64,000 bases of DNA from Nocardioidaceae bacterium (GCA_025980475.1 JAICXL010000005.1:4636-68635); one strand, 5' to 3'; shown: positions 13,222 to 37,585, numbered from the stretch's first letter. Made by a program: numbers and translations. Notes: a model not told the origin generated them from the letters alone.

Positions 13222-14619
13222 TCAGCGGGGGCGGGCGCGGGTGCGGTGGGCCAGCTCGGAGAGCGCGGCGGGAAACACCTCCGCGGGCGGGGTGACCAGG
13301 CCGGCCCCGACCTGCCCGACACCGGCGACCTTGCCGGCCATACCGGTGTTGATCTGCGGCAGGATCCCGGTGCGGCAGACGCGGGTGACGTCGATGCCCG
13401 TGGCGGTGCCCTGGAAGTCGAGCACCGGGATCGTCCATCGGGGGTTCTCGCCGAGGGTGATCTCGTGCATCCGCCTGGTCGTGGCCAACGCGTCGGGCAC
13501 GCTGCCGCCGACGAAGCGCACGATCGCCGGGGCCGTGGCCATCGCGAAGCCACCGATGCCCGCGGTCTCGGTGATCGCGGAGTCACCGATGTCGGGGTTG
13601 GCGTCGTCGGGACCGTAGTCGCCGAGGTAGAGCCCGTCCGCGACCTGGGCGGGCCCGGTGAACCACTGGTCGCCGGTGCCGGCCAGCTGGATGCCGAAGT
13701 CGGTGCCGTTGCGGGACATCGCGACGACCATCGTGGACCCCTCGATGTCGCGGGCGGCGTCGAGCATCAGCTTGCAGGCAGGCATCGCCAGGTTGAGGAA
13801 GAAGTGGTCGTTGCCGCCGATGAAGCGAAGGGCGTCGGCCACCTTGGCGGGCTCGTGGCCTGACGCCACCATCGCCGGGGCGAGGTCGCGCAGCAGCATC
13901 AGGGTGCCGGCCCGGTTGCGGTTGTGCGCCTCGTCGCCCATCTGCAGCATCTGGGTCAGGATCCCGGTGACGTCGACGGGGCCGGTCGCCCGCACGGCGT
14001 CCCGCAACAGCGGACCGAGCACGGCGGACATCCAGCGCAGCCGCTCGAGGACCTCGGGTGCGTAGGCGCCGTAGCGCAGCACCTTGCCGAGGCCCTCGTT
14101 GAGCGAGCAGAAGGTACGACGGCCGGTGGCCGGGTCCTCCAGCACGTACATCCACATCGACGCGGAGACGACCCCGGCCATCGGCCCGACCGCACGGTGG
14201 TGGTGGCAGGGGTCGAGCGAGACGCCGGACCCCGACTCGAAGAGGACGACCGCAGCCTCCGGGTCGTCGACGACGCCCTCGAGCGCAGCGGCTCCCATCA
14301 GGGCTCCCCGCAGCGGGCCCGACGCGTCGGCCCAGGCGATCGGCGGACCGGCGTGCAGGAAGTCACCAGGGGCAAGACCCAGGAGCTCGCCGGCCGGCGC
14401 GACGTCGACGAGCATCGCCTGCACGTCGAGCACCGCGGCCAGCGCTCGCTCGTTGGCGTCCTTGCGCAGCGGGTCGGCGGCGACGCAGGCGAGGTCGCCC
14501 TCCGTGCCGGGCATCGGCGGCCGCCAGTCCACCCGGACCACCGGGACTGCCTGTGCCTCGACCGCGTCGGCGAGGTGGTCGGTGCCGACGGCGACGACGG
14601 ACGCGGGCGCGCTGGTCAT
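13222..14619 (-). CDS. DUF1116-family protein (YlbE/AllG-like)
   Basis: 465 aa recognised as the YlbE-type family. ATGA overlap with the upstream FdrA-like gene (14616-14619). Confidence 0.75.
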   Translation of the reverse strand: MTSAPASVVAVGTDHLADAVEAQAVPVVRVDWRPPMPGTEGDLACVAADPLRKDANERALAAVLDVQAMLVDVAPAGELLGLAPGDFLHAGPPIAWADASGPLRGALMGAAALEGVVDDPEAAVVLFESGSGVSLDPCHHHRAVGPMAGVVSASMWMYVLEDPATGRRTFCSLNEGLGKVLRYGAYAPEVLERLRWMSAVLGPLLRDAVRATGPVDVTGILTQMLQMGDEAHNRNRAGTLMLLRDLAPAMVASGHEPAKVADALRFIGGNDHFFLNLAMPACKLMLDAARDIEGSTMVVAMSRNGTDFGIQLAGTGDQWFTGPAQVADGLYLGDYGPDDANPDIGDSAITETAGIGGFAMATAPAIVRFVGGSVPDALATTRRMHEITLGENPRWTIPVLDFQGTATGIDVTRVCRTGILPQINTGMAGKVAGVGQVGAGLVTPPAEVFPAALSELAHRTRARPR

Positions 14620-16076
14620 CGGGCTCCTCCAAGGATCTCCAGGGCACGCCGGGTGGCCCCGGCGTTGGACAGGTGCACCTCGGCGCCGGCGTCGGCGAGT
14701 GCCTGCGCCTGACGGTCGAGGCCCTGCGGGTCGAGCTCGGTGCCCACGCAGCTGACCACGACGGCAGGACCCGACCGGCGCGCCCGCTCGATCGCGGGCG
14801 CGAGCCGGGAGGCGGGGTCGGACTCGGCGCCGTGGCCCAGCACCACGTCCATCAGCACCACCCCGGTGCGCGGGTCGCTGGCCACCCGGTCGAGGTGCTC
14901 GAGGCGGAGCGTCGGATCGATCATCGGGTGGGCGCGCCCGGAGGTCAGGGCGTCGTCGCCGAAGTCGACCATCAGGTGGGTATCGGCCAGCAGGTCCGTG
15001 TCGAGGGCGAGGTCGGGGGACAGCGGGATGTTGCTGCGCACCGGGCCGAGGGCCGCCGTGGCGATCAGCATCGCCTCGTCGCAGAGAGTGCCGCCGACGA
15101 AGAGGCCCCGCAGCAGGTCACCGTGCGCCTCGCCGGCGCGCCCCCAGACGGGCCAGCCGGGGAGGTCGCGGCCGAGAGCGCGCAGAGCCTGCTCCGCCGC
15201 CGCGGTCAGGTCAGGTCGTCCCTGACCCAGCAGCGCGAGCTCGACCGGCGTCGCCAGCCGGTCGGCGCAGTCGCGGACGACCTCGGCCACCTCGTCCGCG
15301 GGCGGCTTGGAGACCACCACGACGAGCTCGACGCGGGGGTCGGCGTCGAGCCGGCGCAGCGCGGCCAGCGTGGAGCGTCCGCCGATGTCGGTGGACAGGT
15401 CGCGGCCGCCGACGCCGAGCGCCGTGCCGACGCCCACGCCGGCGTGCTCCAGCAGGCAGGCGAGCTGCTGGCAGCCGGTCCCGGACGCCGCGACGATGCC
15501 GACGGGCCCAGGGGAGCAGACGTTGGCGAAGCCGAGGCCCACCCCGTCCACGACTGCGGTCCCGCAGTCGGGTCCCATCACCAGCAGGTCGCGCTCGGCC
15601 GCCACCGTCTTCAGGGCCAGCTCGTGCTCGACCGGGACGTTGTCGCTGAACACCATCACGTCATGACCGGCGTCGAGGGCATCCATGGCCTCGACCAGCG
15701 CGCTCGGACCGGGCACCGACACCAGGACCGTCCCGCCCGCGACCCGCCGCAGCGCGGCCGCGGTGGTGCGGGGCGGTGCCACGTCGGTCGGTTGCGTCGT
15801 CCGGCGCCCGGTCGCGACGAGGGCTTCGTCGACGGCGGCCAGGGCAGCGGCGAGCCGGTCCGCGGAATCCACCCGGACCGCCACCACGAGGTCGTTCGCG
15901 GTGCACTCGGGCAGCGCGAAGCCCATCTGCGAGAGCAGGTCGAGGTTGAGCGGTGTGGCCATCGCGACCTGTGCCGACTCGACACCCGGGGCCTGCTGCA
16001 CCGAGCGGCTCACCTGGAGCAGCGCGACCGAGTCGGCGTAGGCGCCGGGGCGGACCTCGACGTGGGCGTGGCTCAT
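14616..16076 (-). CDS. fdrA: FdrA-family protein (succinyl-CoA-synthetase-like fold, AllF-like)
   Basis: 486 aa with ..VSVPGPSALVEAMDALDAGHDVMVFSDNVP.. and GIVAASGTG.., typical of FdrA. ATGA overlaps on both sides. Confidence 0.8.
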   Translation of the reverse strand: MSHAHVEVRPGAYADSVALLQVSRSVQQAPGVESAQVAMATPLNLDLLSQMGFALPECTANDLVVAVRVDSADRLAAALAAVDEALVATGRRTTQPTDVAPPRTTAAALRRVAGGTVLVSVPGPSALVEAMDALDAGHDVMVFSDNVPVEHELALKTVAAERDLLVMGPDCGTAVVDGVGLGFANVCSPGPVGIVAASGTGCQQLACLLEHAGVGVGTALGVGGRDLSTDIGGRSTLAALRRLDADPRVELVVVVSKPPADEVAEVVRDCADRLATPVELALLGQGRPDLTAAAEQALRALGRDLPGWPVWGRAGEAHGDLLRGLFVGGTLCDEAMLIATAALGPVRSNIPLSPDLALDTDLLADTHLMVDFGDDALTSGRAHPMIDPTLRLEHLDRVASDPRTGVVLMDVVLGHGAESDPASRLAPAIERARRSGPAVVVSCVGTELDPQGLDRQAQALADAGAEVHLSNAGATRRALEILGGAR

Positions 16077-16861
16077 GCTTCTCCATCCTGGTGGGTCTCC
16101 TCGAGCAGCCGGCGGGCGGCGCCGAGCACGAGACCGGCTCCGGAGGTGTGGCCCACCGCGGCGAGCCGGGCTGCTGCTGCGCCGACGGCGGTTTCGTCGC
16201 CGCCCGCCAGCGCCCGCACGAGGGCAGCGAACTGCGGGATCACCTCGCCGGCAGCCGCGCAGTCGATGAGGGTGGCCGAGAGCAGGGTCGTGCGGCTCCG
16301 GGGATCGGGGAGCGGAGCCGCCGGTCGACCCAGCGCGTGGTTGGTGGCCAGCCAGCCGCAGACGACGTCGTCACCCAGCGGGGTCAGGCCCGACCCGCGG
16401 CCGAGCAGCTCGCCCAGGGGTGCCTCGAGCGCGTCGTCGAGCTCGGCCAGGGCGGTGCTGCCGGCCGCGAGCAGCGGGGCCTGCAGCTCGGCCAGGGAGC
16501 ACCGGCCGACCCGGCGCAACGAGGGCACCGAGACGTCGACCAGGCGGCCGACGAGGACCGTGGTGTCGCCCAGTCGGAGCTGGCCGTCCCCGACCCGGGC
16601 CGTGGTGGCATCGGCAAGCACGCCCAGGTGCGGAAGCGCCGTACGCAGGGCACAGGGGACGGCCGTGGCGCCCGCGGCCACCACGCCGACGCACCAGCCG
16701 TCGAGCTCGAGGTAGACCGCGTGCCGGCCTCGGTGGACGATCCTCGCGACCCGCTCCGGGCCGGCCAGACGGGCCCGCAACCGGGCCGGTGCCGCGGCGG
16801 CGACGACGGCGCGCCCGGGCCTGCCCGGGCTGGTGCACTGCACCGTTGGGGCGGCGATCAT
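16073..16861 (-). CDS. DUF2877-family protein (YlbF/AllH-like)
   Basis: Motifs GRGSGLTPLGDDVVCGWL and GHTSGAGLVLG. Internal ATG 16861 chosen because the track start at 16993 would overlap the PucR gene. TACGGT -10 lies 7 nt upstream (leaderless candidate). Confidence 0.7.
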   Translation of the reverse strand: MIAAPTVQCTSPGRPGRAVVAAAAPARLRARLAGPERVARIVHRGRHAVYLELDGWCVGVVAAGATAVPCALRTALPHLGVLADATTARVGDGQLRLGDTTVLVGRLVDVSVPSLRRVGRCSLAELQAPLLAAGSTALAELDDALEAPLGELLGRGSGLTPLGDDVVCGWLATNHALGRPAAPLPDPRSRTTLLSATLIDCAAAGEVIPQFAALVRALAGGDETAVGAAAARLAAVGHTSGAGLVLGAARRLLEETHQDGEA

Positions 16862-16914: not shown

Positions 16915-18207
16915 GTGACCACTGAGCCCCTGCAACACTTGCCAACCGCCAGCGCCGAGGCCCTGGCGCGCATCGATGCCCTCCACTCCGCATTGACCCA
17001 GATCGTGCTCGAGGGCGGGAACCTCAGCCAGATCGCCGCCGAGGCGGCTCGGCTGCTCGACGTCGGGGTGCTGGTCACCTCCACCGACGGGCGCGAGCGG
17101 GCGGCGGCCCTGGACGACTCCGCCCGCGTGGCGCTCGACGACGAGCAGCTGTTCGAGCCGACCGGCCGCTTCCGGGTCGAGCGCGTCGGTGGCGGTGTGC
17201 TATCGGTGGGCACGGGCGAGCTGCGGATGGTGCGGGTCGCGGCGGGGGGCACCGACCTGGCCCGGTTCCTCTGCCTGCGCCGCACCGGCACGATCCCCCT
17301 CGAGGACGTGCACGCCCTCGAACGGGCCGCTGCGGTCGCGGCGCTGCTGATCACCCATGAGGAGGCGATGACCGCGGTCGAGAACAAGTACCGCGGCGAC
17401 TTCCTGCGCGATGTCTTCCTCGGTCGCGCCGGCGACGCGGCCTACGTCGCCGAGCACGCCGAGACCTTCGGCTGGGACCTCGGCCGGCCCACCGTCGTGG
17501 TGGCTGCCGAGATCGACCCCCAGACCGGTGAGGAGGAGCCGGCCTCGAGCCAGGTCCGGCGCCGGTGGCAGGAGCGGTTCGCCTATGCATGGCAGCGGGT
17601 CACCAATGCGCAGGACAAGGCGATGCCCAGCGTGGACTTCTCCTCCGAGGTGGTCACGCTGCCCGGAGTGCCCGAGGGTGCGGAGCCGACCGCGGACGCG
17701 ATGGCGATCGCCGGCAACGTCGTGGATTCCCTGGTCAGCGGGGTCGCCGGGGACAAGGGGGGAGGCAGGCGGCCGTTCTCGGTCGGCGTGAGCCGGGTCG
17801 CACGCACGATCGACGAGCTGCCGCAGGCCTACGCGCAGGCCCGCCGGGCGGTCGAGGTCGGCCGGCGCATCCACGGCGGCGGCTCGACGACGTGGTTCGA
17901 CCAGCTGGGCATCCACCGGCTGATCGCGATGGTCCCCGACGAGCGCGAGCTCGCGACCTTCGCCCGGGACGTCCTCGGCGAGCTGGCCGTCGACAGCCAC
18001 GAGGCACGCGACCTCCGCGAGACCCTGCAGGTGCTGCTCGACACCAACTTCAACGTCGCGGAGGCGGCGCGGCTGCAGTTCTTCCACTACAACACGATGC
18101 GCTACCGGGTCAGCAAGCTGGAGCGGATCCTCGGGCCGCTCGGCCACGACCCGCACCTGCGGCTCGACGTCGCGGTGGCGCTGAAGGTGCTCGAGATCCT
18201 GTCCTGA
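16915..18207 (+). CDS. PucR-family transcriptional regulator
   Basis: C-terminal PucR HTH (NVAEAARLQFFHYNTMRYRVSKLERILG). Divergent from the FdrA-type operon. Confidence 0.9.
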   Translation: MTTEPLQHLPTASAEALARIDALHSALTQIVLEGGNLSQIAAEAARLLDVGVLVTSTDGRERAAALDDSARVALDDEQLFEPTGRFRVERVGGGVLSVGTGELRMVRVAAGGTDLARFLCLRRTGTIPLEDVHALERAAAVAALLITHEEAMTAVENKYRGDFLRDVFLGRAGDAAYVAEHAETFGWDLGRPTVVVAAEIDPQTGEEEPASSQVRRRWQERFAYAWQRVTNAQDKAMPSVDFSSEVVTLPGVPEGAEPTADAMAIAGNVVDSLVSGVAGDKGGGRRPFSVGVSRVARTIDELPQAYAQARRAVEVGRRIHGGGSTTWFDQLGIHRLIAMVPDERELATFARDVLGELAVDSHEARDLRETLQVLLDTNFNVAEAARLQFFHYNTMRYRVSKLERILGPLGHDPHLRLDVAVALKVLEILS

Positions 18208-18352
18208 CCCCGGCCGCCGCCGGTGCCGCCGCCGCGCCCACAACGGTTGCCAGCGGGGCCGGCGTTCCTTCGGCATCTCTCGCCGTCGATGGTGTGTGAT
18301 GGGCCTCACTACGTTGAGGCATCTCGGTCGCACTAGTGGCAGGAGGATCCAG

Positions 18353-19795
18353 ATGTCCATGTTCACCTGGCAAGAGGTGGACCCGGCGCCCGGGGAGGCC
18401 GTCGCCCCGGGGCAGCGGCTGAGCTGGGGTCGCACCGTCGGACTCGGTGCCCAGCACGTGGTCGCGATGTTCGGGGCCACGTTCGTCTTCCCGCTGGTGA
18501 TGGGGCTCGACCCCAACCTGGCGATCTTCTTCTCCGGCGTCTGCACGGTCCTCTTCCTGCTGGTCGTGGCCAACAGGGTGCCCAGCTACCTCGGCACCAG
18601 CGCCTCCTTCGTGGCCAGCGTCGCGGCGATCCGCGCTCAGGGCGGCAGCTCGGCAGACGTCACCGGCGCCATCCTCGTGGCCGGCGTCGCGCTGGCCCTG
18701 GTCGGCGTGGTGGTGCACTTCGCCGGCTCGGGCGTGATCCACAAGGTGCTGCCGCCGGCGGTCACCGGCGCCGTGGTCATGCTGATCGGCTTCAACCTGG
18801 CGCCGGTCGTCGCCGGCACATACTGGCCCCAGGACCAGTGGATCGCGCTGCTCACCGCCACCTTCATGGTCTGCGCGGCCATCCTGCTGCCCGGCTTCTG
18901 GGCCCGGATCGCCGTGTTCCTCGCGCTGATCTTCGGCTACCTCCTCTCGTTCCTCGCCGACACCCTCTTCGGCACGATCCACTCGATGCTGCCGGGCCAG
19001 AACCTGATGATGCCCGACATCGTCAACGGCAAGGCCACGATGGTGCCCTGCCCGAAGGAGGGCGGCATCAACTGCGTGGCGTCCGCCTTCGACCACGACC
19101 GGATCTGGGCCTGGTCGGGGGTCGGCAAGGCGGACTGGATCGGCTTCCCCCACGGCACCCTGGGCGACGGCGTCTCGGTCGTGCACGGCCCGAGCCTGTC
19201 GCTGACCTTCATCCTGCTGGTGCTGCCGGGCGTGATCGCCCTCATCGCCGAGAACACCGGCCACGTCAAGGCGGTTGCCGAGATGACCGGCGACAACCTC
19301 GACCCCTACATGGGTCGGGCGCTGGCCGCCGACGGCGTCGCCACCGCCCTGGCGAGCACCTTCGGCGGCTCACCGACCACGACCTACGCCGAGAACATCG
19401 GGGTGATGGCCTCGACCAAGGTCTACTCCACGGCCGCCTACTACGTCGCGGCGGCGGTCGCCATCCTGCTCGGGCTCTGTCCGAAGTTCGGGGCGATCGT
19501 CAACGCCACCCCTGGTGGGGTCCTCGGCGGCATCACCGTGGTGCTCTACGGCATGATCGGCCTGGTCGGCGCCAAGATCTGGGTCGAGAACGGGGTGGAC
19601 TTCGGCAACCCCGTCAACATGGTCGGCCTCGCCGCGGGCATCATCGCGGGCATCGGCGGGGTCACCATCACCTTCACCGACAACTTCTCCCTCGGCGGGA
19701 TCGCGCTCGGCACGATCCTGGTCATCGTCTACTTCCACCTGGTCAAGGGCAAGAAGGAAGAGCTGGGCGCGAAGGAAGTGACCGGAGCACTGTGA
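18353..19795 (+). CDS. NCS2 (uracil/xanthine-type) nucleobase:cation symporter
   Basis: LGAQHVVAMFGATFVFPL and later ENIGVM motifs, with multiple TM segments. ATG 18353 follows AGGAGG. Confidence 0.85.
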   Translation: MSMFTWQEVDPAPGEAVAPGQRLSWGRTVGLGAQHVVAMFGATFVFPLVMGLDPNLAIFFSGVCTVLFLLVVANRVPSYLGTSASFVASVAAIRAQGGSSADVTGAILVAGVALALVGVVVHFAGSGVIHKVLPPAVTGAVVMLIGFNLAPVVAGTYWPQDQWIALLTATFMVCAAILLPGFWARIAVFLALIFGYLLSFLADTLFGTIHSMLPGQNLMMPDIVNGKATMVPCPKEGGINCVASAFDHDRIWAWSGVGKADWIGFPHGTLGDGVSVVHGPSLSLTFILLVLPGVIALIAENTGHVKAVAEMTGDNLDPYMGRALAADGVATALASTFGGSPTTTYAENIGVMASTKVYSTAAYYVAAAVAILLGLCPKFGAIVNATPGGVLGGITVVLYGMIGLVGAKIWVENGVDFGNPVNMVGLAAGIIAGIGGVTITFTDNFSLGGIALGTILVIVYFHLVKGKKEELGAKEVTGAL

Positions 19796-20667
19796 AACCG
19801 GCTCCCTTCGCCTACCTGCGCCCGCGGACCCTCGAGGAGGCACTCGAGGCGCTGGCGGCCAATGAGGGAGCCAAGGTGCTCGCGGGCGGGCAGAGCCTGG
19901 TGCCGCTGCTGTCGATGCGGTTGGCGGCACCGGGCATGCTCGTCGACATCAACGCGCTGCCGGACCTGGGGGCGATCACCGTGGCGGACGACGGGGTCCG
20001 GGTCGGCGCCCTGGCCCGGCACGCGGCCGTCCTGGCCGACGAGGGCGCCCGCCGGGTGCAACCCCTCCTCGGCAAGGCGCTGCGCCACGTCGCGCACCCC
20101 ACCATCCGCAACAGGGGTACGACGGTCGGCTCGATCGTCCACGCCGACGGGGCCGCGGAGCTGCCCGCCGTGCTCCGCCTGCTCGACGGCTGGGTGGAGG
20201 TCGCCTCGGTCGCGGGCCGACGCACGATCCCCGCGGCGGAGCTCTTCGTGGGGCCGCTCGAGAGCTCACTGCGCCACGACGAGATCGCGGTGTCGGCCAC
20301 CTTCCCCGGTCTGCGGGCAGCCGAAGGCGTCGCCTTCGACGAGGTGGCGCGGCGCCACGGTGACTACGCGATGTGTGGCGTCGCCGCGCTGGTGCGGACG
20401 GAGGGGAAGCAGGTCGTGGCGGCGCGGGCGGCCTACCTCTCGGTCGAGGACGTCCCGACGGTCGTCGACCTGACGGCGGCGCTCGCCGACGGGGTGGATA
20501 CCGCGTCCCTGGCCGCAGCCGGCGAGCTCGCCCTGGCGCACCTCGAGCCGGTGGCCGACCTGCACGCCTCGGCCGCCTATCGTGCCCAGCTGGTGCGGGT
20601 GCTCACCCGCCGGGTGGTCGAGGCGGCGCATGCGGACGCGTTGACGAGGCAGGGGGTGGCGGCATGA
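19792..20667 (+). CDS. Mo-hydroxylase FAD-binding (medium, CoxM/CutM-like) subunit
   Basis: AGGQSLVPLLSMRL FAD motif. GTGA overlap with the permease stop. Confidence 0.85.
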   Translation: MKPAPFAYLRPRTLEEALEALAANEGAKVLAGGQSLVPLLSMRLAAPGMLVDINALPDLGAITVADDGVRVGALARHAAVLADEGARRVQPLLGKALRHVAHPTIRNRGTTVGSIVHADGAAELPAVLRLLDGWVEVASVAGRRTIPAAELFVGPLESSLRHDEIAVSATFPGLRAAEGVAFDEVARRHGDYAMCGVAALVRTEGKQVVAARAAYLSVEDVPTVVDLTAALADGVDTASLAAAGELALAHLEPVADLHASAAYRAQLVRVLTRRVVEAAHADALTRQGVAA

Positions 20668-21149
20668 CCGAGGAGCTGCACGAGATCCGGCTGCACGTCA
20701 ACGGGACGTCGTACGCCCTGACCGTTCCCGGCCGCCGGCTGCTCTCCGACGCGCTGCGCCACGACCTCGGGCTCACCGGCACCCACGTCGGCTGCGAGCA
20801 CGGCGTCTGTGGCGCCTGCACGATCCTCGTCGACGGTGCCCCGATGCGCTCGTGCCTGATGTTCGCGGTCTCGGCCGTCGACGCCGAGCTCACCACCGTC
20901 GAGGGGCTGGCTGACGCCGACGGCTCGCTCGGGCCGGTGCAGCAGGCGTTCCTCGAGTGCCACGGACTGCAGTGCGGCTTCTGCACGCCCGGCTTCCTGA
21001 CCACGATCACCGCCGGGCTGCGCGACAACCCCCGGCCCACGCACGCGGAGGCCCGCGAGATGGTCGCCGGCAACCTGTGCCGCTGCACTGGCTACCAGAA
21101 CATCGTCAAGGCTGTGGAGCGGGCCGCGGAGCTCGGGGCCGGCCGATGA
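20664..21149 (+). CDS. Mo-hydroxylase [2Fe-2S] small subunit
   Basis: GCEHGVCGACT, CGFCTPG and CRCTGY cysteine motifs. ATGA overlap upstream. Confidence 0.9.
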   Translation: MTEELHEIRLHVNGTSYALTVPGRRLLSDALRHDLGLTGTHVGCEHGVCGACTILVDGAPMRSCLMFAVSAVDAELTTVEGLADADGSLGPVQQAFLECHGLQCGFCTPGFLTTITAGLRDNPRPTHAEAREMVAGNLCRCTGYQNIVKAVERAAELGAGR

Positions 21150-23584
21150 CCACCAAGCTCGTCGGCGCCAAGGTGCAACGGGTCGAGGACCAGCGCTTCC
21201 TGCGCGGGCAGGGCAGGTACGTCGATGACATCGACGTCCACGCCGGCACCCCGACGCTGCACGCGGCGGTGCTGCGCTCGCCGCACGCGCACGCCCGGGT
21301 CCGGGACATCGACGTGGAGGCAGTGCTCGACGTCGAAGGCGTGCACGCGGTGTGGACCTACCAGGACCTGGCCGACCTGTCTGTGAACCTCGCCGACCCG
21401 CTGCCGCTGCTGATCCCGCATCCTGCGCTGACCCATGGGCGCACCCAGTACGCCCTGGCGAAGGACGAGGTCAACTACGTCGGGGAGGCGGTGGCGTTCG
21501 TGGTCGCCGACGACCGCTACCTCGCCGAGGACGCCGTCGACCGGATCCGGGTCGACTACGAGCCGCTGCCGCCGGTGGTCGGGATCGACGCTGCCCGCGC
21601 CGCCGAGCACCTCGTCCACGAGGACGTGCCGGGCAACGTCGGGGCGCGCCTGGAGCAGGAGGTCGGGGACGCGCGCGCGGCCATCGCCGACGCACCGCAC
21701 CGGCTGTCGCTCGACCTCACCGTCGAGCGCAGCGCCTCGACGCCGCTCGAGGGCCGCGGGGTGGTCGCCCGGTGGGACCCCGACATCGGCCGGCTGCAGG
21801 TCTGGACCTCGACCCAGACCTCCACCGGGGTCCGGGCGGCGGTCGCGGTCAAGCTCGGCCTCGACCTGGGCCAGGTCGACGTGATCACCCCCGACGTCGG
21901 TGGTGGCTTCGGCGTGAAGATCAACCACCCGTGGCCCGAGGAGCTGCTGGTGCCCGCGGCGGCCCGCGCGCTCGGCCGGACGGTGAAGTTCACCGAGGAC
22001 CGCCGCGAGCACTTCATCTCCGCCGCCCACGAGCGCGGCCAGGTCCACCACGTCGAGGTCGGCTTCGACGACGACGGGAGGCTGCTCGGCCTCGACGTCA
22101 CCTTCTGGCACGACCACGGTGCGTACACGCCGTACGGCCTGATCGTCCCGATCATCACCTCCACCCAGCTGCTCGGGCCCTACAAGCCACAGAGCTACCG
22201 GGTGGTCTTCGAGAGCCTCTACACGAACACGGTGATGGTCACCCCCTACCGCGGTGCCGGCCGGCCGCAGGGCTGCTTCGTGATGGAGCGGACCATGGAC
22301 GCGATCGCGGCCCACCTGCACAAGGACCGCACCGAGGTGCGCGCGACCAACTTCATCCAGCCCGACGAATTCCCCTACGACCAGGGGCTGGTCTTCCAGG
22401 ACGGCCGGGAGCTGGAGTACGACTCCGGTGACTACCCGAGGTCGCTGGAGATGATCAAGAGGCTGGTCGGCTGGGACGAGTTCGAGGCCTTCCGCGCCGA
22501 GATGGCCGCCGAGGGCCGGCGGGTCGGCATCGGCCTGGCCTGCTACGTCGAGGGCACCGGCGTCGGCCCCTACGAGGGGGCGCACGTGCACATCGAGACG
22601 ACCGGCAAGGTCAAGGTCGCCACCGGGCTGACCACGCAGGGGCAGGGGCACGCGACGGTCTTCGCACAGCTCGTGGCCGACGAGCTCGGGGTGCCGATGA
22701 CCGACGTCGAGGTGGTCACCGGCGACACGCGTCGGATGCCCTACGCGGTGGGGACGTTCGCCTCCCGGTCGGCGGTGATGAGTGGGTCCGCCGTACACCT
22801 GGCAGCGAAGCGGGCGAAGGAGAAGGTGCTCAGGATCGCCTCCGACGCGCTGGAGGCCGACGTCGACGACCTCGAGATCGTCGAGGGAGTGGTCAGCGTC
22901 AAGGGCTCGCCCGGGGCGTCCATCGACCTCGGCACGGTCGCGGTGCTGTCGAACCCGCTGCGCTACGCCTTCGACGAGAAGTCGCGCGCCGCGACGCAGT
23001 TCACCGTCGGTGACCCCGGCAAGCCGCCGGTGGCCGAGGACGACGAGCCAGGGCTCGAGGGCAAGGACTTCTACTCCCCGGAGCGGTCCACCTTCGCCTC
23101 CGGCATGCACGCCGTCATCGTCGAGACCGACCCGGACACCGCCGAGGTGAGGATCCTGAAGTACGCCGTGGTCCACGACTGCGGCAACCTGATCAACCCG
23201 ATGATCGTCGAGGGACAGATCCACGGCGGCATCGCCCAGGGCGTCGGGGGTGCGCTCTACGAACGGATGGCGTACGACGAGCACGGCCAGCTGCTCAATG
23301 CCTCGTTCATGGACTTCCTGATGCCCTACGTCACCGAGGTCCCCGACACGATCGAGATCGACCACCTCGAGACGCCCTCGCCGTTGAACCCGATCGGCGT
23401 CAAAGGGGCGGGGGAGGCCGGGGTGATCCCGTCCGCGGCGGTGTTCGCCGCGGCGATCGAGGACGCCGAGGCGCACGACCACCCGGGCCTGGCGATCACG
23501 GGCATGCCGATCTCGCCGTCGGAGCTGTTCGCCCTTCGACAGGCTCAGGAACCGCTGCTGAAGCAGCACGAGGAGGACGCATGA
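21146..23584 (+). CDS. Mo-hydroxylase molybdopterin-binding large subunit, form-II CoxL-like
   Basis: 812 aa with GGGFGVK Moco motif. The active-site loop reads PYRGAGRP (22247-22264), i.e. the AYRGAGR form-II signature rather than the AYxCSFR of true CO dehydrogenases. ATGA overlap upstream. Confidence 0.85.
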   Translation: MTTKLVGAKVQRVEDQRFLRGQGRYVDDIDVHAGTPTLHAAVLRSPHAHARVRDIDVEAVLDVEGVHAVWTYQDLADLSVNLADPLPLLIPHPALTHGRTQYALAKDEVNYVGEAVAFVVADDRYLAEDAVDRIRVDYEPLPPVVGIDAARAAEHLVHEDVPGNVGARLEQEVGDARAAIADAPHRLSLDLTVERSASTPLEGRGVVARWDPDIGRLQVWTSTQTSTGVRAAVAVKLGLDLGQVDVITPDVGGGFGVKINHPWPEELLVPAAARALGRTVKFTEDRREHFISAAHERGQVHHVEVGFDDDGRLLGLDVTFWHDHGAYTPYGLIVPIITSTQLLGPYKPQSYRVVFESLYTNTVMVTPYRGAGRPQGCFVMERTMDAIAAHLHKDRTEVRATNFIQPDEFPYDQGLVFQDGRELEYDSGDYPRSLEMIKRLVGWDEFEAFRAEMAAEGRRVGIGLACYVEGTGVGPYEGAHVHIETTGKVKVATGLTTQGQGHATVFAQLVADELGVPMTDVEVVTGDTRRMPYAVGTFASRSAVMSGSAVHLAAKRAKEKVLRIASDALEADVDDLEIVEGVVSVKGSPGASIDLGTVAVLSNPLRYAFDEKSRAATQFTVGDPGKPPVAEDDEPGLEGKDFYSPERSTFASGMHAVIVETDPDTAEVRILKYAVVHDCGNLINPMIVEGQIHGGIAQGVGGALYERMAYDEHGQLLNASFMDFLMPYVTEVPDTIEIDHLETPSPLNPIGVKGAGEAGVIPSAAVFAAAIEDAEAHDHPGLAITGMPISPSELFALRQAQEPLLKQHEEDA

Positions 23585-24228
23585 AGATCGCCGGTGAGGC
23601 GACCCTGGTCGCGCCCGTCGCCCAGGTCTGGGAGGCGCTGCTGGACCCCCGGGTCCTGGTGGCCACGATCCCCGGCTGCGAGCGGCTCGTCGCGACCGGC
23701 GAGAACGCCTACGACATGACCGTGACCGCCGGCGTCGCGGCGATCCGTGGGACCTACGCCGGCACCTGCGAGCTCAGCGACCTGAAGGAGCACGAGTCGC
23801 TGGTGCTGCGCGCGAGGGGCGCCGGTGCGCCGGGGACGATCGACGCCACGGTCCAGGTGCGCTTCGACGCCAACGAGGACGGCACCACCACGCTGTTCTA
23901 CGACGCGGACGCCATCGTCGGCGGGATGGTCGGCGGCGTGGGCCAGCGGATGCTCACGTCGGTGAGCAGGCGGATGGCGACGGAGTTCTTCAGCAACGTC
24001 GAGCGGGCGATCAGCGGGGTGGCGGCCCACGAGGAACCGGTTGCGCCGTCGACCGCTGCCGCCCCGACCGCGCCGGGTGTCTACACCGCGCCCCCACGGC
24101 CCGCTGGTGGGCTCGACCAGGACAGCTTCCTGAAGGGGGTGGCCCTGGGTGCCGGCCTGGTCCTGGCCGGGGCGGTCGTGGGCGGCGTCTTCGGGCGGAG
24201 GGCGCTGACGTGTCCGACCTCTCGGTGA
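23581..24228 (+). CDS. CoxG/SRPBCC-family protein with C-terminal TM anchor
   Basis: MKIAGEATLVAPVAQVWEALLDPRVL.. is a CoxG-like start. ATGA overlap with the large subunit. Confidence 0.75.
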   Translation: MKIAGEATLVAPVAQVWEALLDPRVLVATIPGCERLVATGENAYDMTVTAGVAAIRGTYAGTCELSDLKEHESLVLRARGAGAPGTIDATVQVRFDANEDGTTTLFYDADAIVGGMVGGVGQRMLTSVSRRMATEFFSNVERAISGVAAHEEPVAPSTAAAPTAPGVYTAPPRPAGGLDQDSFLKGVALGAGLVLAGAVVGGVFGRRALTCPTSR

Positions 24229-25601
24229 TCTCCACGGCCCGGGAGATGGCTGCGGCGGTCCGCGCCCGGGAGATCTCCGCCCGGGAGCTGCTCGACCTGC
24301 ACCTGGCCCGGATCGCGGAACGCAACCCGGAGCTCAACGCGATCGTCTCGATCGACGAGGAGAGGGCCCGGGCCGCCGCGGCGCGGGCCGACGAGCGCAC
24401 CGCGCTCGGCCTCGAGACCGGCCCGTTGCACGGCCTGCCCTTCGCCTTCAAGGACACCCACGACGTCGCCGGTTGGCGAACGACCTACGGCTCGCCCCTC
24501 TTCGCCGAGCACGTGCCCGACGCCGACGACCTCGTCGTGGAGCGCGTCCGCGGGGCGGGCGTGGTCATCCTCGGCCGGACCAACGTCCCCGAGTTCGCGG
24601 CGGGGTCGCACACCTTCAACCGGGTCTTCGGCACCACGCTCAACCCGGTCGACCCCAGCCGGTCGGCCGGCGGCTCGAGTGGCGGGGCGGCGTGTGCCCT
24701 GGCGTCGGGGATGCTGCCCCTGGCGGACGGCTCCGACATGGGCGGCTCGCTGCGCAACCCGGCGTCTTTCTGCGGCGTGGTCGGGATGCGGCCGTCGCTG
24801 GGCCGGGTGCCGGGCTGGCCGACGAGCAACCTCTGGGAGGCGACCGCCACCGCAGGGCCGATGGCGCGCAACGTCGCCGACCTGGCGCTGCTGCTCTCGG
24901 TGATGGCCGGACCGGACCCGCGGGTGCCGACCGCCCTCGCAGCGCCCGGCAGCGACTTCGCCCCGCCGGTCGCCGGGTCGCTGGGCGGACTCCGGGTCGC
25001 CCACTCGATCGACCTCGGCGGTGCCTTCGAGGTCGACGGCGCCGTGGCCGCCGTCGTCGAGGCGTCGGCCTCGGTCTTCGCGGCGGCGGGGGCCGACGTA
25101 CGTCCCGACCGTCCCGACCTCGCCGAGGCCGAGGACTGCTTCCGGACCCTGCGCGCCTGGCTGTTCCAGGCCTCCTTCGGCGATCTGCTGCGGGAGCATC
25201 CCGACGGCTTCAAGGAGTCGCTGGCCGACAACATCCGGGCCGGCGCGGCGCTCACCGGTGCCGATGTGGCGCGCGCCTACGCACAGCGGACCGCCCTGGC
25301 CGAGCGGATGCGGGCGTTCTTCACGAGCTACGACGTCCTGGTGCTGCCGGTCTCGCAGGTGCCGCCGTTCCCGGCCGACCAGGAGTTCCCCCGGTCGATC
25401 AACGGAAAGCCGATGAGCACCTACCTGGACTGGATGCGGTCCGCCTACTTCATCACCGTCACCGGGTGCCCGGCGATCTCCGTGCCGGGCCGCACCACTC
25501 CCGACGGCCTCCCGGTGGGCATCCAGGTCGTCGCGCCGCACGGCGCCGAGCGACGGCTGCTGGAGGTCGCCGCCGCGTTCGAGGAGGCGACCGCGGGCTG
25601 A
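24210..25601 (+). CDS. amidase-signature (AS) family amidase
   Basis: FAFKD (Lys), GGSSGGAA and GSDMGGSLR motifs of the Ser-cisSer-Lys triad. 19-nt overlap with the CoxG-like gene. Confidence 0.9.
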   Translation: MSDLSVISTAREMAAAVRAREISARELLDLHLARIAERNPELNAIVSIDEERARAAAARADERTALGLETGPLHGLPFAFKDTHDVAGWRTTYGSPLFAEHVPDADDLVVERVRGAGVVILGRTNVPEFAAGSHTFNRVFGTTLNPVDPSRSAGGSSGGAACALASGMLPLADGSDMGGSLRNPASFCGVVGMRPSLGRVPGWPTSNLWEATATAGPMARNVADLALLLSVMAGPDPRVPTALAAPGSDFAPPVAGSLGGLRVAHSIDLGGAFEVDGAVAAVVEASASVFAAAGADVRPDRPDLAEAEDCFRTLRAWLFQASFGDLLREHPDGFKESLADNIRAGAALTGADVARAYAQRTALAERMRAFFTSYDVLVLPVSQVPPFPADQEFPRSINGKPMSTYLDWMRSAYFITVTGCPAISVPGRTTPDGLPVGIQVVAPHGAERRLLEVAAAFEEATAG

Positions 25602-25616
25602 GGCTGCTGCGCCCCG

Positions 25617-25700
25617 TTGTCCACAGCCCAGCCCGCTTCCTGTGACTTCTCGGCCCCTTCCTGTGGAGGACCGGGCAGCAGCTGTGGACGCGCCTGTGCA
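25617..25700 (+). promoter_or_regulatory. DnaA-box-like / TGTGGA motif array (locus 1)
   Basis: Perfect TTGTCCACA at 25617-25625. CTTCCTGTGAC at 25636-25646, CTTCCTGTGGAG at 25657-25668, CTGTGGAC at 25682-25689 and TGTGCA at 25695-25700. Core spacing is 21, 21 and 12 nt. Confidence 0.5.
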
Positions 25701-25731
25701 TTGCGAGAATTCGTCGAAATAGTTGGCGAAA

Positions 25732-25960
25732 CCCCTTGCGCGGCCATCCCCGCGGGGCATAGAAATCTCTCACGCGGTCCCTCCGGGGATCAGCGGGACC
25801 GGCAGGAAGCGGTCGATCCAGACGCCGAGGAAACTCGTCGCAGTGGCAGGTGGCAGCGCCGCTGGGATCGATGGCGGAGAGTCAGTCGATCGGAGTGTCA
25901 CCGCCGATCATCAGAAGGGCCCGTGCAACTCATACTTGCGCGGGCCCTTCGTCTTTCTCC
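25732..25960 (+). ncRNA. candidate small RNA (predicted only from promoter-like and terminator elements)
   Basis: TAGTTG -10-like hexamer (25720-25725) lies 31 nt after the last TGTGGA core. A strong terminator ends the unit at about 25960. No convincing ORF; internal hairpins (CCCCGCGGGG; CGGTCCC..GGGACCG). Confidence 0.25.
25914..25960 (+). terminator. intrinsic terminator-like hairpin
   Basis: GAAGGGCCCG (25914-25923) pairs perfectly with CGGGCCCTTC (25941-25950). 17-nt loop, then the T-rich tail GTCTTTCTCC. Confidence 0.6.
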
Positions 25961-25991
25961 GATCGCCCTCACCGACGTGGCCGCCAGCGAT

Positions 25992-27897: not shown

Positions 27898-28002
27898 GCG
27901 ACCGTCGTGGACCACCCGCCGCAGGAGGTGCCAACGGGAGCCCGGTCTGTCGGCAACATGTGCCGTCGCCCGGCCTGAGCGCGGACGGCTTGAATTCCTC
28001 CC

Positions 28003-37495: not shown

Positions 37496-37585
37496 AGGCG
37501 ATTGGCACAAGTTGCCGTGGCCCGGGCCGGCCGTTGGCTGTTCCTGCCCGTGCCGGGCCGTCGACGCCCCCCTAGATTCGACGCC

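What the first reader, a model, noticed from the sequence alone, without database searches (positions are those of the whole stretch)
18353..25601. Form-II CoxL-like molybdenum hydroxylase operon fused to a nucleobase permease and an amidase
Seen: six genes (permease, FAD, 2Fe-2S, Mo subunit, CoxG-like, amidase) are linked by GTGA/ATGA overlaps at 19792, 20664, 21146 and 23581 and by a 19-nt overlap at 24210. The large subunit carries PYRGAGRP (22247-22264), not the CO-dehydrogenase AYxCSFR loop. Established: form-II CoxL-like enzymes mostly lack assigned substrates. Inference: coupling to an NCS2 uracil/xanthine-type transporter and a PucR regulator points to a nucleobase substrate, making this a concrete candidate for the genetically unassigned uracil/thymine dehydrogenase.
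Basis: partly seen in the sequence, partly recalled or inferred. Interest (0 to 1): 0.65.

Follow-up and report, generated by a model that had tools for sequence, protein, structure and literature searches.

The report
Candidate uracil dehydrogenase operon beside barbiturase
This six-gene operon most likely encodes the long-sought molybdenum enzyme that oxidises uracil to barbiturate, because the same window and many other actinobacterial genomes place it next to barbiturase, the enzyme that uses that product.

Summary
Six translationally coupled genes lie at 18353-25601: a UraA-type NCS2 permease, FAD, 2Fe-2S and Mo subunits, a CoxG-like protein and an amidase. The large subunit has the loop VTPYRGAGRPQ with no cysteine, so it cannot be a Mo-Cu CO dehydrogenase, although NCBIfam NF040766 names this clade as one.

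The same window encodes a barbiturase orthologue at 38553-39659 (82% identical to the solved Rhodococcus enzyme), preceded by a carbamate kinase.

In other genomes (Pseudonocardia, Nocardioides, Marmoricola, Jatrophihabitans, Blastococcus, Embleya, Nonomuraea, Rhodococcus) orthologues of the Mo subunit (58-91% identity) lie in the same gene neighbourhood as barbiturase. In the compact versions the order is permease-FAD-FeS-Mo-CoxG-(amidase)-HyuA-HyuB-(CoA-transferase)-carbamate kinase-barbiturase. This includes Rhodococcus qingshengii, a close relative of the strain in which the oxidative pyrimidine pathway was characterised. Paralogues at 44% identity or less have unrelated neighbours.

The best reading is uracil/thymine dehydrogenase (EC 1.17.99.4), confidence about 0.8. 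No paper in the searchable library assigns it a gene.

The downstream steps are only partly resolved. The roles of the AllFGH-like genes, the carbamate kinase, the amidase and HyuAB are inferred or unknown. No enzyme assay exists.

The parts
13222..14619 (-). AllG-like subunit (PF06545), 46% identical to E. coli YlbE/AllG
   Evidence: syntenic in L001, L085, L087, L088, L092, L093
14616..16076 (-). AllF/FdrA-like subunit (Ligase_CoA), 37% identical to E. coli FdrA/AllF
16073..16780 (-). AllH-like subunit (PF11392). The start is uncertain: 16780 is preferred over 16993, which would overlap pucR
16915..18207 (+). PucR-family regulator (GGDEF_2 plus HTH_30), divergent from the allHFG-like genes
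18239..18288 (+). Conserved promoter/operator block upstream of the permease: CACAACGGTTGCCAGCG and TTCCTTCGGCA-N5-CGCCGTCG
   Evidence: Conserved in the window, L001 and L085. TTGCCAGCG occurs only here and at 16907-16915 in the whole window
18353..19795 (+). NCS2 permease of UraA/RutG type, the probable uracil/thymine importer
19792..20667 (+). FAD-binding medium subunit (CoxM-like)
20664..21149 (+). Small subunit with two [2Fe-2S] clusters. All eight ligand cysteines are present (C44, 49, 52, 64; C104, 107, 139, 141)
21146..23584 (+). Molybdopterin large subunit, the candidate uracil/thymine dehydrogenase catalytic subunit. Active-site loop VTPYRGAGRPQ (PYRGAGRP = nt 22244-22267); conserved Glu757 in KGAGEAG (nt 23414-23416)
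23581..24228 (+). CoxG-like SRPBCC protein with an Ala/Pro-rich linker and a C-terminal hydrophobic helix. Probable membrane/quinone coupling factor
   Evidence: role of CoxG from PMC12202499
24210..25601 (+). Amidase-signature enzyme (K81, S156, S180). Candidate ureidomalonase (N-malonylurea hydrolase) or malonamidase
25914..25960 (+). Terminator-like hairpin (15-bp stem plus T-rich tail) that closes the permease-to-amidase operon
27952..27964 (+). Palindrome GGCAACATGTGCC upstream of hyuA
28003..30135 (+). HyuA (ATP-dependent hydantoinase/oxoprolinase family, alpha). Conserved partner of barbiturase; role unknown
30132..32057 (+). HyuB (hydantoinase B/oxoprolinase family)
37502..37517 (+). 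Palindrome TTGGCACAAGTTGCCG, 82 nt upstream of the carbamate kinase start. It is orthologous to sites at -81 to -83 in 25 of 77 promoter regions examined (76 other loci plus this window, which is itself one of the 25)
37586..38527 (+). Carbamate kinase (NCBIfam PRK12352, 302 bits against a cut-off of 266)
   Evidence: directly upstream of barbiturase in 78 of 80 loci
38553..39659 (+). Barbiturase orthologue (AtzD/TrzD fold)
40275..41552 (-). Family III CoA-transferase, the candidate malonate CoA-transferase. A homologue lies within 10 kb of barbiturase in 61 of 80 loci

Best explanation
Genes 19792-23584 encode a heterotrimeric Mo-pterin/FAD/[2Fe-2S] hydroxylase of the CoxLMS architecture. I propose that it is uracil/thymine dehydrogenase (EC 1.17.99.4).

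Proposed pathway:
1. Uracil or thymine enters through the UraA-type permease (18353-19795).
2. The Mo centre hydroxylates C6 to give barbiturate or 5-methylbarbiturate.
3. Electrons pass through the two Fe-S clusters and FAD. The membrane-anchored CoxG-like protein probably passes them on to menaquinone.
4. Barbiturase (38553-39659) opens the ring to ureidomalonate.
5. Ureidomalonate is cleaved to malonate in one of two ways. The amidase (24210-25601) may hydrolyse it to urea plus malonate. Alternatively the AllFGH-like carbamoyltransferase (13222-16780) may cleave it with phosphate to malonamate plus carbamoyl phosphate. In that case the carbamate kinase (37586-38527) makes ATP and the amidase deamidates malonamate.
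6. The family III CoA-transferase (40275-41552) activates malonate.

A PucR-type regulator, with shared operator-like sites, would control these transcription units.

Shown here: gene content, domain integrity, orthology of the barbiturase, and conserved synteny.
Inferred: the substrate, every reaction step, the electron acceptor and the regulation.
For: 1. Barbiturase in the window. It scores 655 bits and is 82% identical to solved barbiturase 5HWE. The best cyanuric acid hydrolase scores 326 bits.

2. Conserved linkage.
- Pseudonocardia acidicola L085 carries AllG-AllF-AllH <> PucR-perm-FAD-FeS-Mo-CoxG-amidase-HyuA-HyuB-NmrA-CK-Bar-CoAT within 22 kb.
- The same order is seen in N. terrigena L067, Pseudonocardia L069 and L073, Marmoricola L061, Jatrophihabitans L063, and L021 and L060.
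- Blastococcus L084 has CK-Bar-perm-FAD-FeS-Mo-CoxG.
- Embleya L087 has both modules within 12 kb.
- In Nonomuraea, Bar lies about 31 kb from the Mo gene.
- Among barbiturase loci with a complete hyuA, 18 of 21 with at least 3 kb of sequence upstream show a gene of this operon, and 9 of 9 with at least 4 kb do.

3. Link to the biochemistry. Rhodococcus qingshengii has a barbiturase 99% identical to the characterised R. erythropolis enzyme. Its locus reads upp <> bar-amidase-aminotransferase-perm-FAD-FeS-Mo(62%, same VTPYRGAGRPQ)-CoxG-HyuA. R. erythropolis JCM3132 grows on pyrimidines through this pathway (PMC3961730, PMC3758960).

4. A clean clade boundary. Barbiturase-linked orthologues are 58-91% identical to the window protein, and the four scanned score 1400-1490 bits on NF040766. 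The next homologues are 44% identical or less, score 765-895 (below the cut-off of 950), and have unrelated neighbours.

5. The permease. It is closest to RutG (337 bits) and uracil permease (240 bits), against 141 bits for xanthine permease. Its best PDB match is UraA (181 bits) against UapA (53 bits). The residues aligned to UraA E241, H245 and E290 are unchanged; their role in binding uracil is from my memory of the UraA structure.

6. The chemistry fits. Hydroxylation of a ring carbon next to nitrogen is the standard reaction of this family. The closest solved relatives include quinoline 2-oxidoreductase and 6-hydroxypseudooxynicotine dehydrogenase.

7. Cofactor sites are intact.

8. No paper in the searched library assigns a gene to this EC number.
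Against: - There is no biochemical or genetic test. The case is guilt by association.
- Linkage is not universal. Three barbiturase loci (L011, L054, L064) carry only HyuAB-CoAT-CK-Bar between housekeeping genes.
- An Aeromicrobium contig has perm-FAD-FeS-Mo-CoxG with no barbiturase within 9 kb.
- Rhodococcus sp. ZPP plasmid pRZP2 has the cluster with no barbiturase within 20 kb. On that plasmid the Mo and HyuA matches are each split in two.
- In this window the operon and barbiturase are 13 kb apart (amidase stop to barbiturase start; 15 kb from the Mo gene) and in separate transcription units.
- HyuAB is as tightly linked to barbiturase as anything else, yet has no place in the textbook pathway. 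The real pathway may therefore differ from the one assumed.
- The AllFGH-like genes and PucR are best known from purine/allantoin catabolism.
- The literature search covers open-access papers only. An assignment published in a subscription journal would have been missed.
Confidence: 0.8

Rival explanations
1. It is an aerobic (form II, or NCBIfam 'group 5') carbon monoxide dehydrogenase, as NCBI annotation names this clade.
For: NCBIfam NF040766, 'aerobic carbon-monoxide dehydrogenase large subunit', scores 1489 bits against a cut-off of 950. The sources name the homologues that way. The architecture is CoxLMS plus CoxG. M. smegmatis CoxL is among the top PDB matches at 430 bits.
Against: The active-site loop is VTPYRGAGRPQ. 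The cysteine of (A/S)YRCS(F/L)R, which carries the copper, is absent in every orthologue examined. No coxD/E/F-type maturation gene (AAA MoxR, VWA, XdhC) was found in the window. The operon is translationally coupled to a uracil-type permease and an amidase and is linked to barbiturase. The activity of form II enzymes is stated to be unresolved (PMC13240472). Quinoline 2-oxidoreductase scores higher than any CODH.
Confidence: 0.03
2. It hydroxylates a purine or another N-heterocycle whose breakdown runs through oxalurate. The AllFGH-like oxamate carbamoyltransferase and the carbamate kinase would then do their E. coli job, and barbiturase linkage would reflect a mixed nucleobase-catabolism island.
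For: The PucR-family regulator, the AllFGH-like genes and the carbamate kinase are components of purine/allantoin catabolism elsewhere (PMC11326118, PMC9843812). NCS2 transporters also carry xanthine and urate.
Against: No uricase, allantoinase, allantoicase, ureidoglycolate dehydrogenase or XDH gene is in the window or in the compact clusters. The permease is of UraA/RutG type, not PbuX/UapA type. In the compact clusters barbiturase, not any purine enzyme, is the recurring ring-opening partner. The Rhodococcus and Blastococcus loci keep Mo plus Bar but show no AllFGH within the 10-kb flanks fetched. The window AllF and AllG are only 37% and 46% identical to the E. coli proteins.
Confidence: 0.08
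3. It is a pyrimidine-ring hydroxylase in the barbiturase pathway, but its physiological substrate is not uracil itself. Candidates are thymine only, 5-substituted uracils, 4(3H)-pyrimidinone or 4,6-dihydroxypyrimidine, or a product of HyuAB.
For: HyuAB and an NmrA-like reductase are conserved in the cluster and have no role in the textbook pathway. Substrate range cannot be read from the sequence.
Against: The only biochemically documented biological route to barbiturate is uracil oxidation (PMC3758960). The uracil-type permease is the first gene of the operon. The Rhodococcus locus has upp next to bar.
Confidence: 0.09

Closest known systems
Uracil/thymine dehydrogenase, EC 1.17.99.4 (the 'uracil-thymine oxidase' of the Rhodococcus/Nocardia/Mycobacterium oxidative pyrimidine pathway)
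   Same: The predicted reaction, uracil to barbiturate, feeds barbiturase. Orthologues sit beside bar in Rhodococcus, the genus in which the pathway was characterised (PMC3758960).
   Different: The activity has no gene assigned in any paper I could search. Identity with the historical enzyme is inferred, not shown. I recall the EC entry and its pathway partners from memory.
Quinoline 2-oxidoreductase QorLMS (PDB 1T3Q) and 6-hydroxypseudooxynicotine (ketone) dehydrogenase (PDB 7DQX)
   Same: These are the best solved relatives (457 and 434 bits). They share the three-subunit Mo/FAD/2Fe-2S architecture and hydroxylate a ring carbon next to nitrogen.
   Different: The similarity is distant, roughly a third of the score of true orthologues. 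The gene context and presumed substrate differ. Sixty-six positions are invariant in the barbiturase-linked clade and differ in the nearest paralogues, for example GGGFGVKI-x-HPW and GDTRR-x-x-YAV.
Form I Mo-Cu CO dehydrogenase CoxLMS with CoxG (PDB 1N5W, 8UEM)
   Same: Subunit architecture, a downstream CoxG-like gene and a conserved active-site glutamate. CoxG delivers menaquinone to the enzyme in M. smegmatis (PMC12202499).
   Different: There is no cysteine in the active-site loop and there are no Cu-maturation genes. The operon is coupled to a permease and an amidase.
E. coli allFGHK (oxamic transcarbamylase plus carbamate kinase)
   Same: Homologues of all three subunits and of the kinase are present (Pfam AllG, AllH, FdrA). 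The known reaction is phosphorolysis of an N-acylurea to carbamoyl phosphate (PMC11326118).
   Different: Identity is 37-46%, and AllH is detectable only by profile. The kinase lies 20 kb away, next to barbiturase. There are no allantoin genes. The proposed substrate is ureidomalonate, which is oxalurate plus one CH2. That proposal is my inference.
Rut and reductive Pyd pyrimidine catabolic pathways
   Same: The physiological purpose is the same: uracil or thymine as a nitrogen and carbon source, with an NCS2 importer (RutG-like).
   Different: The chemistry is entirely different. Here a Mo-dependent hydroxylation is followed by hydrolytic opening of barbiturate.

Membership tests
Xanthine oxidase / Mo-hydroxylase family, heterotrimeric CoxLMS-type | Large subunit with a/b-hammerhead and two MoCo-binding domains | tested here: met
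   PF01315, PF02738 and PF20256, all far above their cut-offs
Xanthine oxidase / Mo-hydroxylase family, heterotrimeric CoxLMS-type | FAD subunit (FAD_binding_5 plus CO_deh_flav_C) and a small subunit with two [2Fe-2S] clusters, eight Cys ligands | tested here: met
   Cys 44, 49, 52, 64 and 104, 107, 139, 141
Xanthine oxidase / Mo-hydroxylase family, heterotrimeric CoxLMS-type | Conserved active-site glutamate near the C-terminus | tested here: met
   E757 in KGAGEAG, invariant in all nine aligned sequences. Equivalence to the catalytic Glu of XDH and CoxL is by motif position, from memory
Form I Mo-Cu CO dehydrogenase | (A/S)YRCS(F/L)R loop with the Cu-binding cysteine | tested here: not met
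   The loop is VTPYRGAGRPQ. Motif definition from PMC13240472
Form I Mo-Cu CO dehydrogenase | coxD/E/F-type maturation genes nearby | tested here: not met
   No MoxR-AAA, VWA or XdhC family hit among the window's called genes
Form II CoxL (King and Weber) | AYRGAGR active-site motif | tested here: inconclusive
   The window has PYRGAGR, with Pro in place of Ala in all orthologues. I built no phylogeny with reference form II sequences
NCBIfam NF040766 (CODH_aero_grp5) | Whole-protein score of at least 950 bits | tested here: met
   1489 bits. This tests membership of the sequence family, not the function in its name
Uracil/thymine dehydrogenase, EC 1.17.99.4 | Oxidises uracil to barbiturate and thymine to 5-methylbarbiturate with an artificial or respiratory acceptor | not testable with these tools
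   Needs an enzyme assay
Uracil/thymine dehydrogenase, EC 1.17.99.4 | Acts in one pathway with barbiturase (shared genomic neighbourhood as a proxy) | tested here: met
Uracil/thymine dehydrogenase, EC 1.17.99.4 | Present in organisms with the demonstrated pathway | tested here: met
   A 62% identical orthologue lies beside bar in R. qingshengii, whose Bar is 99% identical to the R. erythropolis enzyme. The type strain's own genome was not examined
Barbiturase (AtzD/TrzD ring-opening amidohydrolases), for 38553-39659 | Closer to characterised barbiturase than to cyanuric acid hydrolases | tested here: met
   655 bits and 82% identity to 5HWE, against at most 326 bits to any cyanuric acid hydrolase. 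The NCBIfam cyanuric-acid equivalog NF052395 also passes (478 against a cut-off of 360), so automatic naming is ambiguous
NCS2 uracil permeases (UraA/RutG) | Substrate-site residues of UraA (E241, H245, E290) | tested here: met
   AENTGH and YAENIGV align with AEHVGH and YGENIGV. The residue roles are from my memory of the UraA structure
NCS2 uracil permeases (UraA/RutG) | Reaches the NCBIfam equivalog cut-offs | tested here: not met
   RutG 337 bits against 759; uracil permease 240 bits against 477. It is a related subfamily, not an equivalog
Oxamate carbamoyltransferase AllFGH | Three subunits AllF, AllG and AllH encoded together | tested here: met
   PF00549/FdrA, PF06545 and PF11392 in one overlapping gene string, 13222-16780
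Oxamate carbamoyltransferase AllFGH | Acts on oxalurate within allantoin catabolism | tested here: not met
   No allantoin-pathway genes in the window. Substrate is not testable here
Amidase signature family | Ser-cisSer-Lys triad and the GGSSGG / G-x-D-x-GGS-x-R motifs | tested here: met
   K81, GGSSGG at 154-159, GSDMGGSLR at 174-182; PF01425 361 bits

The most novel reading that the evidence does not exclude
The actinobacterial cluster encodes an undescribed form of the oxidative pyrimidine pathway that conserves energy.

After uracil dehydrogenase and barbiturase, ureidomalonate would not simply be hydrolysed to urea. An AllFGH-type carbamoyltransferase would cleave it with phosphate, or the universally linked ATP-dependent HyuAB enzyme would act on ureidomalonate or on urea. 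Either route would yield carbamoyl phosphate, which the barbiturase-adjacent carbamate kinase converts to ATP.

The amidase-only hydrolytic route seen in Rhodococcus would then be the alternative branch.

This is consistent with two observations. Carbamate kinase sits next to barbiturase in 78 of 80 loci. Within the 10-kb flanks fetched, amidase and kinase partly replace each other: the Rhodococcus locus has amidase and no kinase, while the Blastococcus and Jatrophihabitans-type loci have kinase and no amidase.
Probability: 0.35. Interest if true: 0.8.

Novelty: new member of a known kind. Interest (0 to 1): 0.72.

Why it matters
The oxidative pyrimidine pathway was described in the 1950s (PMC3758960). 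No paper in the library I could search assigns a gene to its first enzyme.

- **A testable assignment.** A specific gene set, with orthologues in genetically tractable Rhodococcus, makes the question testable with one knockout and one enzyme assay.
- **Substrate for a CoxL-like clade.** It would give a substrate to a clade of CoxL-like enzymes without the copper-binding cysteine. The function of such 'form II'-type enzymes is otherwise unresolved.
- **Annotation correction.** It would correct a systematic label. NCBIfam NF040766 names this clade 'aerobic carbon-monoxide dehydrogenase large subunit' in many actinobacterial genomes. That can inflate gene-based estimates of CO-oxidation potential.
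- **More orphan steps.** The conserved extra genes (HyuAB, carbamate kinase, AllFGH-like, CoA-transferase) point to further unassigned steps, including the ureidomalonase gene.

Tried and rejected
- **Literature.** Seven full-text searches used barbiturase, uracil dehydrogenase, ureidomalonase, EC numbers, malonylurea and related terms (one search failed on syntax). None found a paper assigning the gene. Seffernick 2012 (PMC3415516) is not held.
- **A wasted comparison.** Comparing barbiturase with the amidase was uninformative.
- **A false operator site.** GGCAACCTGTGCC at 21069 looked like a third operator site. It is conserved only because it encodes the Fe-S motif GNLCRC, so I rejected it.
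- **Sigma-54 promoter.** I considered reading the TGGCA-N5-TGCCA palindrome as a sigma-54 promoter. The GG-to-GC spacing is two nt too short, and from memory Actinobacteria lack sigma-54.
- **Sigma-70 promoters.** The scan found none in 16500-33000. That is expected for a high-GC actinobacterium and tells us nothing.
- **RNA genes.** The Rfam and tRNA scans were empty.
- **Genes seen in relatives.** tblastn for NmrA-like, RidA, XdhC, the ACC-like carboxyltransferase, the aminotransferase and upp found none in this window.
- **Amidase as malonamidase E2.** The PDB search gave only generic amidase-signature relatives (GatA, urethanases, AtzE) at 185-210 bits, so the amidase cannot be called from sequence.

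Full report
**Observation**

Pfam confirms each:
- NCS2 permease, 18353-19795
- FAD subunit, 19792-20667
- 2Fe-2S subunit, 20664-21149
- Mo large subunit, 21146-23584
- CoxG-like protein, 23581-24228
- amidase-signature enzyme, 24210-25601

The junctions are GTGA at 19792 and ATGA at 20664, 21146 and 23581. There is a 19-nt overlap at 24210-24228. The 24210 start is supported by a GGAGG upstream and by orthologue N-termini. A 15-bp hairpin with a T-rich tail at 25914-25960 closes the operon. A PucR-family gene lies upstream at 16915-18207.

**What else is in the window**

Further genes matter.
- Divergent from pucR lie homologues of the three subunits of E. coli oxamic transcarbamylase: AllG at 13222-14619, AllF/FdrA at 14616-16076 and AllH at 16073-16780. 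AllG is 46% and AllF 37% identical to the E. coli proteins. The enzyme is described in PMC11326118.
- Downstream lie HyuA and HyuB, ATP-dependent hydantoinase/oxoprolinase-family subunits, at 28003-32057.
- A carbamate kinase lies at 37586-38527 (PRK12352, 302 bits against a cut-off of 266).
- Twenty-five nt after the kinase comes an AtzD/TrzD-fold protein at 38553-39659. It scores 655 bits and is 82% identical to the solved barbiturase 5HWE. The best cyanuric acid hydrolase scores 326 bits.
- A family III CoA-transferase follows on the opposite strand at 40275-41552.

The rest of the window is housekeeping and holds no allantoin or urate genes.

Barbiturase is the second enzyme of the oxidative pyrimidine pathway: uracil to barbiturate to ureidomalonate to urea plus malonate (PMC3758960).

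**Comparative genomics**

I scanned one genome per species for relatives of the window's barbiturase and kept 80 loci with 10-kb flanks. tblastn with the window's proteins gave these results:
- Carbamate kinase lies directly upstream of barbiturase in 78 of 80 loci.
- HyuA or HyuB is present in 59 loci and the CoA-transferase in 61.
- Where the flank reaches far enough, the order is FeS-Mo-CoxG-(amidase)-(acyltransferase)-HyuA-HyuB-(CoA-transferase)-CK-Bar. Examples are L067, L069, L073, L061, L063, L060, L021 and L042.
With at least 4 kb, 9 of 9 do.

Pseudonocardia acidicola shows the whole set in 22 kb: AllG-AllF-AllH <> PucR-perm-FAD-FeS-Mo-CoxG-amidase-HyuA-HyuB-NmrA-CK-Bar-CoAT. The window therefore holds the same system, interrupted by insertions. 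The clearest is a type III polyketide synthase cassette at 33704-37495, which has no tblastn match in any of the 80 barbiturase loci.

The upstream part, AllGFH <> (PucR) perm-FAD-FeS-Mo-CoxG-amidase ... HyuAB, recurs in N. panaciterrulae, N. dongkuii and Nocardioides sp. cx-173.

Outside these families:
- Blastococcus has CK-Bar-perm-FAD-FeS-Mo(64%)-CoxG.
- Embleya has both modules within 12 kb.
- In Nonomuraea the barbiturase lies about 31 kb from the Mo gene.

**Link to the biochemistry**

I used the sequence of the crystallised Rhodococcus erythropolis barbiturase as a query. It found a 99% identical protein in R. qingshengii. That locus reads XdhC, PucR, permease, carboxyltransferase, CoA-transferase, PucR, upp <> Bar-amidase-aminotransferase-permease-FAD-FeS-Mo-CoxG-like-HyuA.

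Its Mo subunit is 62% identical to the window's and carries the same VTPYRGAGRPQ loop. Its permeases are 62-64% identical to the window's. R. erythropolis JCM3132 is the strain in which barbiturase and ureidomalonase were characterised (PMC3961730, PMC3758960).

**Clade boundary**

Against the plasmid collection, which includes some mislabelled chromosomes, identity drops from 58.6% to 44% with nothing in between. The 44% homologues in Serratia and Variovorax have unrelated neighbours: no NCS2 permease, no PucR and no barbiturase.

NCBIfam NF040766 follows the same boundary. The window, Rhodococcus, Blastococcus and Aeromicrobium proteins score 1401-1489 bits. The two paralogues score 895 and 765, below the cut-off of 950.

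The model's name, 'aerobic carbon-monoxide dehydrogenase large subunit', is contradicted by the missing copper-binding cysteine (motif definition in PMC13240472). The window also holds no Cu-maturation genes.

The best solved relatives are quinoline 2-oxidoreductase (457 bits), 6-hydroxypseudooxynicotine dehydrogenase (434 bits) and M. smegmatis CoxL (430 bits). All three are distant.

**Other supporting details**

- The permease is nearest RutG (337 bits) and uracil permease (240 bits), not xanthine permease (141 bits).
- Its best PDB match is UraA (181 bits), against UapA at 53 bits. The residues aligned to UraA E241, H245 and E290 are unchanged.
- The small subunit has all eight Fe-S cysteines. 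The amidase has its K81, S156, S180 triad.
- The CoxG-like protein ends in a hydrophobic helix. That fits the membrane and quinone role shown for CoxG in M. smegmatis (PMC12202499).
- Sixty-six positions are invariant in the barbiturase-linked clade and differ in both paralogues. They include GGGFGVKI-x-HPW and GDTRR-x-x-YAV.

**Regulation (suggestive only)**

- GGCA-N5-TGCC occurs 7 times in the window against about 2 expected.
- Two copies are intergenic: upstream of hyuA at 27952-27964 and upstream of the kinase at 37504-37516.
- The kinase site lies at -82. Related palindromes (consensus about TGGCAAC-N3-TTGCCAGCG) sit at -81 to -83 of the kinase start in 25 of 77 promoter regions examined (76 other loci plus this window, which is itself one of the 25).
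- The half-site TTGCCAGCG occurs only twice in the 64-kb window, at the pucR start (16907) and 98 nt upstream of the permease (18247). I estimate about 0.7 occurrences by chance from base composition.
- The permease upstream block is conserved in three genomes.
- A third exact match, at 21069, is coding sequence for GNLCRC and is not a site.

**Mechanism I commit to**

The Mo enzyme is uracil/thymine dehydrogenase. The permease imports the base. CoxG couples the enzyme to the quinone pool. Barbiturase opens the product.

For ureidomalonate I see two routes. Both are inferred.
- Hydrolysis by the amidase to urea plus malonate. This is the Rhodococcus arrangement: Bar and the amidase overlap, and no kinase or AllFGH lies within 10 kb.
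- Phosphorolysis by the AllFGH-like complex to malonamate plus carbamoyl phosphate. The kinase then makes ATP and the amidase deamidates malonamate.

Within the 10-kb flanks fetched, amidase and kinase partly replace each other. Blastococcus, Jatrophihabitans, L021 and L071 have the kinase and no amidase. Rhodococcus has the amidase and no kinase. The Nocardioides and Pseudonocardia loci examined have both.

The CoA-transferase would activate malonate. In Rhodococcus, Embleya and Nonomuraea an AccD/AccA-like carboxyltransferase sits next to it.

HyuAB is as tightly linked to barbiturase as the kinase, and I cannot place it.

**Caveats**

- Three barbiturase loci (L011, L054, L064) contain only HyuAB-CoAT-CK-Bar between housekeeping genes.
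- One Aeromicrobium contig has the five-gene core without barbiturase within 9 kb.
- Rhodococcus sp. ZPP plasmid pRZP2 has a copy without barbiturase within 20 kb. There the Mo and HyuA matches are each split in two.
- I could not check whole genomes for the missing partner.
- No activity data exist, and the literature check is limited to the held library.

**Verdict**

I put confidence at about 0.8 that this is the uracil/thymine dehydrogenase. It is a new functional member of a known enzyme family. It fills an orphan step first described in the 1950s and implies that a widely applied database name is wrong.

Noticed in passing
window 28003-32057; loci L003-L094: HyuA/HyuB (ATP-dependent hydantoinase/oxoprolinase family, nearest caprolactamase but far below its cut-off) occur in 59 of 80 barbiturase loci. 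They are also present in the Rhodococcus, Blastococcus, Embleya and Nonomuraea loci, often with an NmrA-like reductase. The textbook oxidative pyrimidine pathway has no step for them.
   Followed up: partly
window 37586-38527 with 38553-39659; L003-L082: A carbamate kinase gene lies directly upstream of barbiturase in 78 of 80 loci. That implies carbamoyl phosphate is made downstream of barbiturase. Within the 10-kb flanks, amidase and kinase partly replace each other across lineages.
   Followed up: partly
window 33704-37495: A cassette of FAD oxidoreductase, type III polyketide synthase, ICMT-family methyltransferase and FAD monooxygenase. From memory it resembles the srsABC phenolic-lipid genes of Streptomyces. 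It sits between hyuB and the carbamate kinase and has no tblastn match in any of the 80 barbiturase loci, so it looks like an insertion into the pyrimidine cluster.
   Followed up: partly
window 37502-37517, 27952-27964, 18239-18288, 16889-16915: Palindromic sites related to TGGCAAC-N3-TTGCCAGCG lie upstream of the kinase and hyuA. Half-sites TTGCCAGCG lie upstream of the permease and at the pucR start. The kinase site is positionally conserved (-81 to -83) in 25 of 77 promoter regions examined. This is probably the operator of the cluster's regulator.
   Followed up: partly
NCBIfam NF040766, as applied to window 21146-23584 and its orthologues: The curated model that names this clade 'aerobic carbon-monoxide dehydrogenase large subunit' coincides with the barbiturase-linked clade among the six sequences scanned. 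All aligned members of that clade lack the Cu-binding cysteine, so the name is probably a systematic mis-annotation.
   Followed up: yes
window 38553-39659: The barbiturase orthologue also passes the NCBIfam equivalog for cyanuric acid amidohydrolase (NF052395, 478 bits against a cut-off of 360). Sources name close relatives variously 'cyanuric acid amidohydrolase', 'barbiturase' or 'ring-opening amidohydrolase'.
   Followed up: yes
window 25602-26032: A 430-nt non-coding stretch follows the amidase. It contains a strong hairpin terminator (25914-25950) and three copies of GCTATAC (25992, 26010, 26019) just upstream of an AAA_16 ATPase gene (26033-27181). Its G+C content looks lower than the surrounding sequence.
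   Followed up: no
L011 11441-12861 (Phycicoccus sonneratiae): Immediately downstream of a stand-alone HyuAB-CoAT-CK-Bar module lie a YqcI/YcgG-family gene and a DUF1989 gene. From memory, DUF1989 is the family annotated as urea-carboxylase-associated, which hints at urea handling.
   Followed up: no
L086 (Rhodococcus sp. ZPP plasmid pRZP2, 20001-25350): A plasmid-borne copy of the cluster: amidase, CoAT, XdhC, PucR, permease, FAD, FeS, Mo, CoxG, HyuAB, NmrA. The Mo subunit and HyuA each match in two pieces and are missing from the gene table, so they are likely frameshifted pseudogenes. No barbiturase lies within 20 kb.
   Followed up: partly
window 41569-47969: Two adjacent UvrD-helicase plus PD-(D/E)XK nuclease proteins (1075 and 1058 aa) that look like AdnA/AdnB. 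About 30 of the 80 barbiturase loci have them as the conserved downstream neighbour, which marks the chromosomal position of the cluster in those loci, many of them Nocardioides.
   Followed up: no
window 8864-10075: A ThiF plus rhodanese fusion, of MoeZ/MoeB type (sulfur-carrier activation, possibly for Moco synthesis). It lies upstream of the cluster and occupies the same relative position in N. dongkuii (L092).
   Followed up: no
window 23581-24228: The CoxG-like protein has a COXG domain (aa 5-145), an Ala/Pro-rich linker and a C-terminal hydrophobic segment (FLKGVALGAGLVLAGAVVGGVFG). This suggests a membrane tether.
   Followed up: partly
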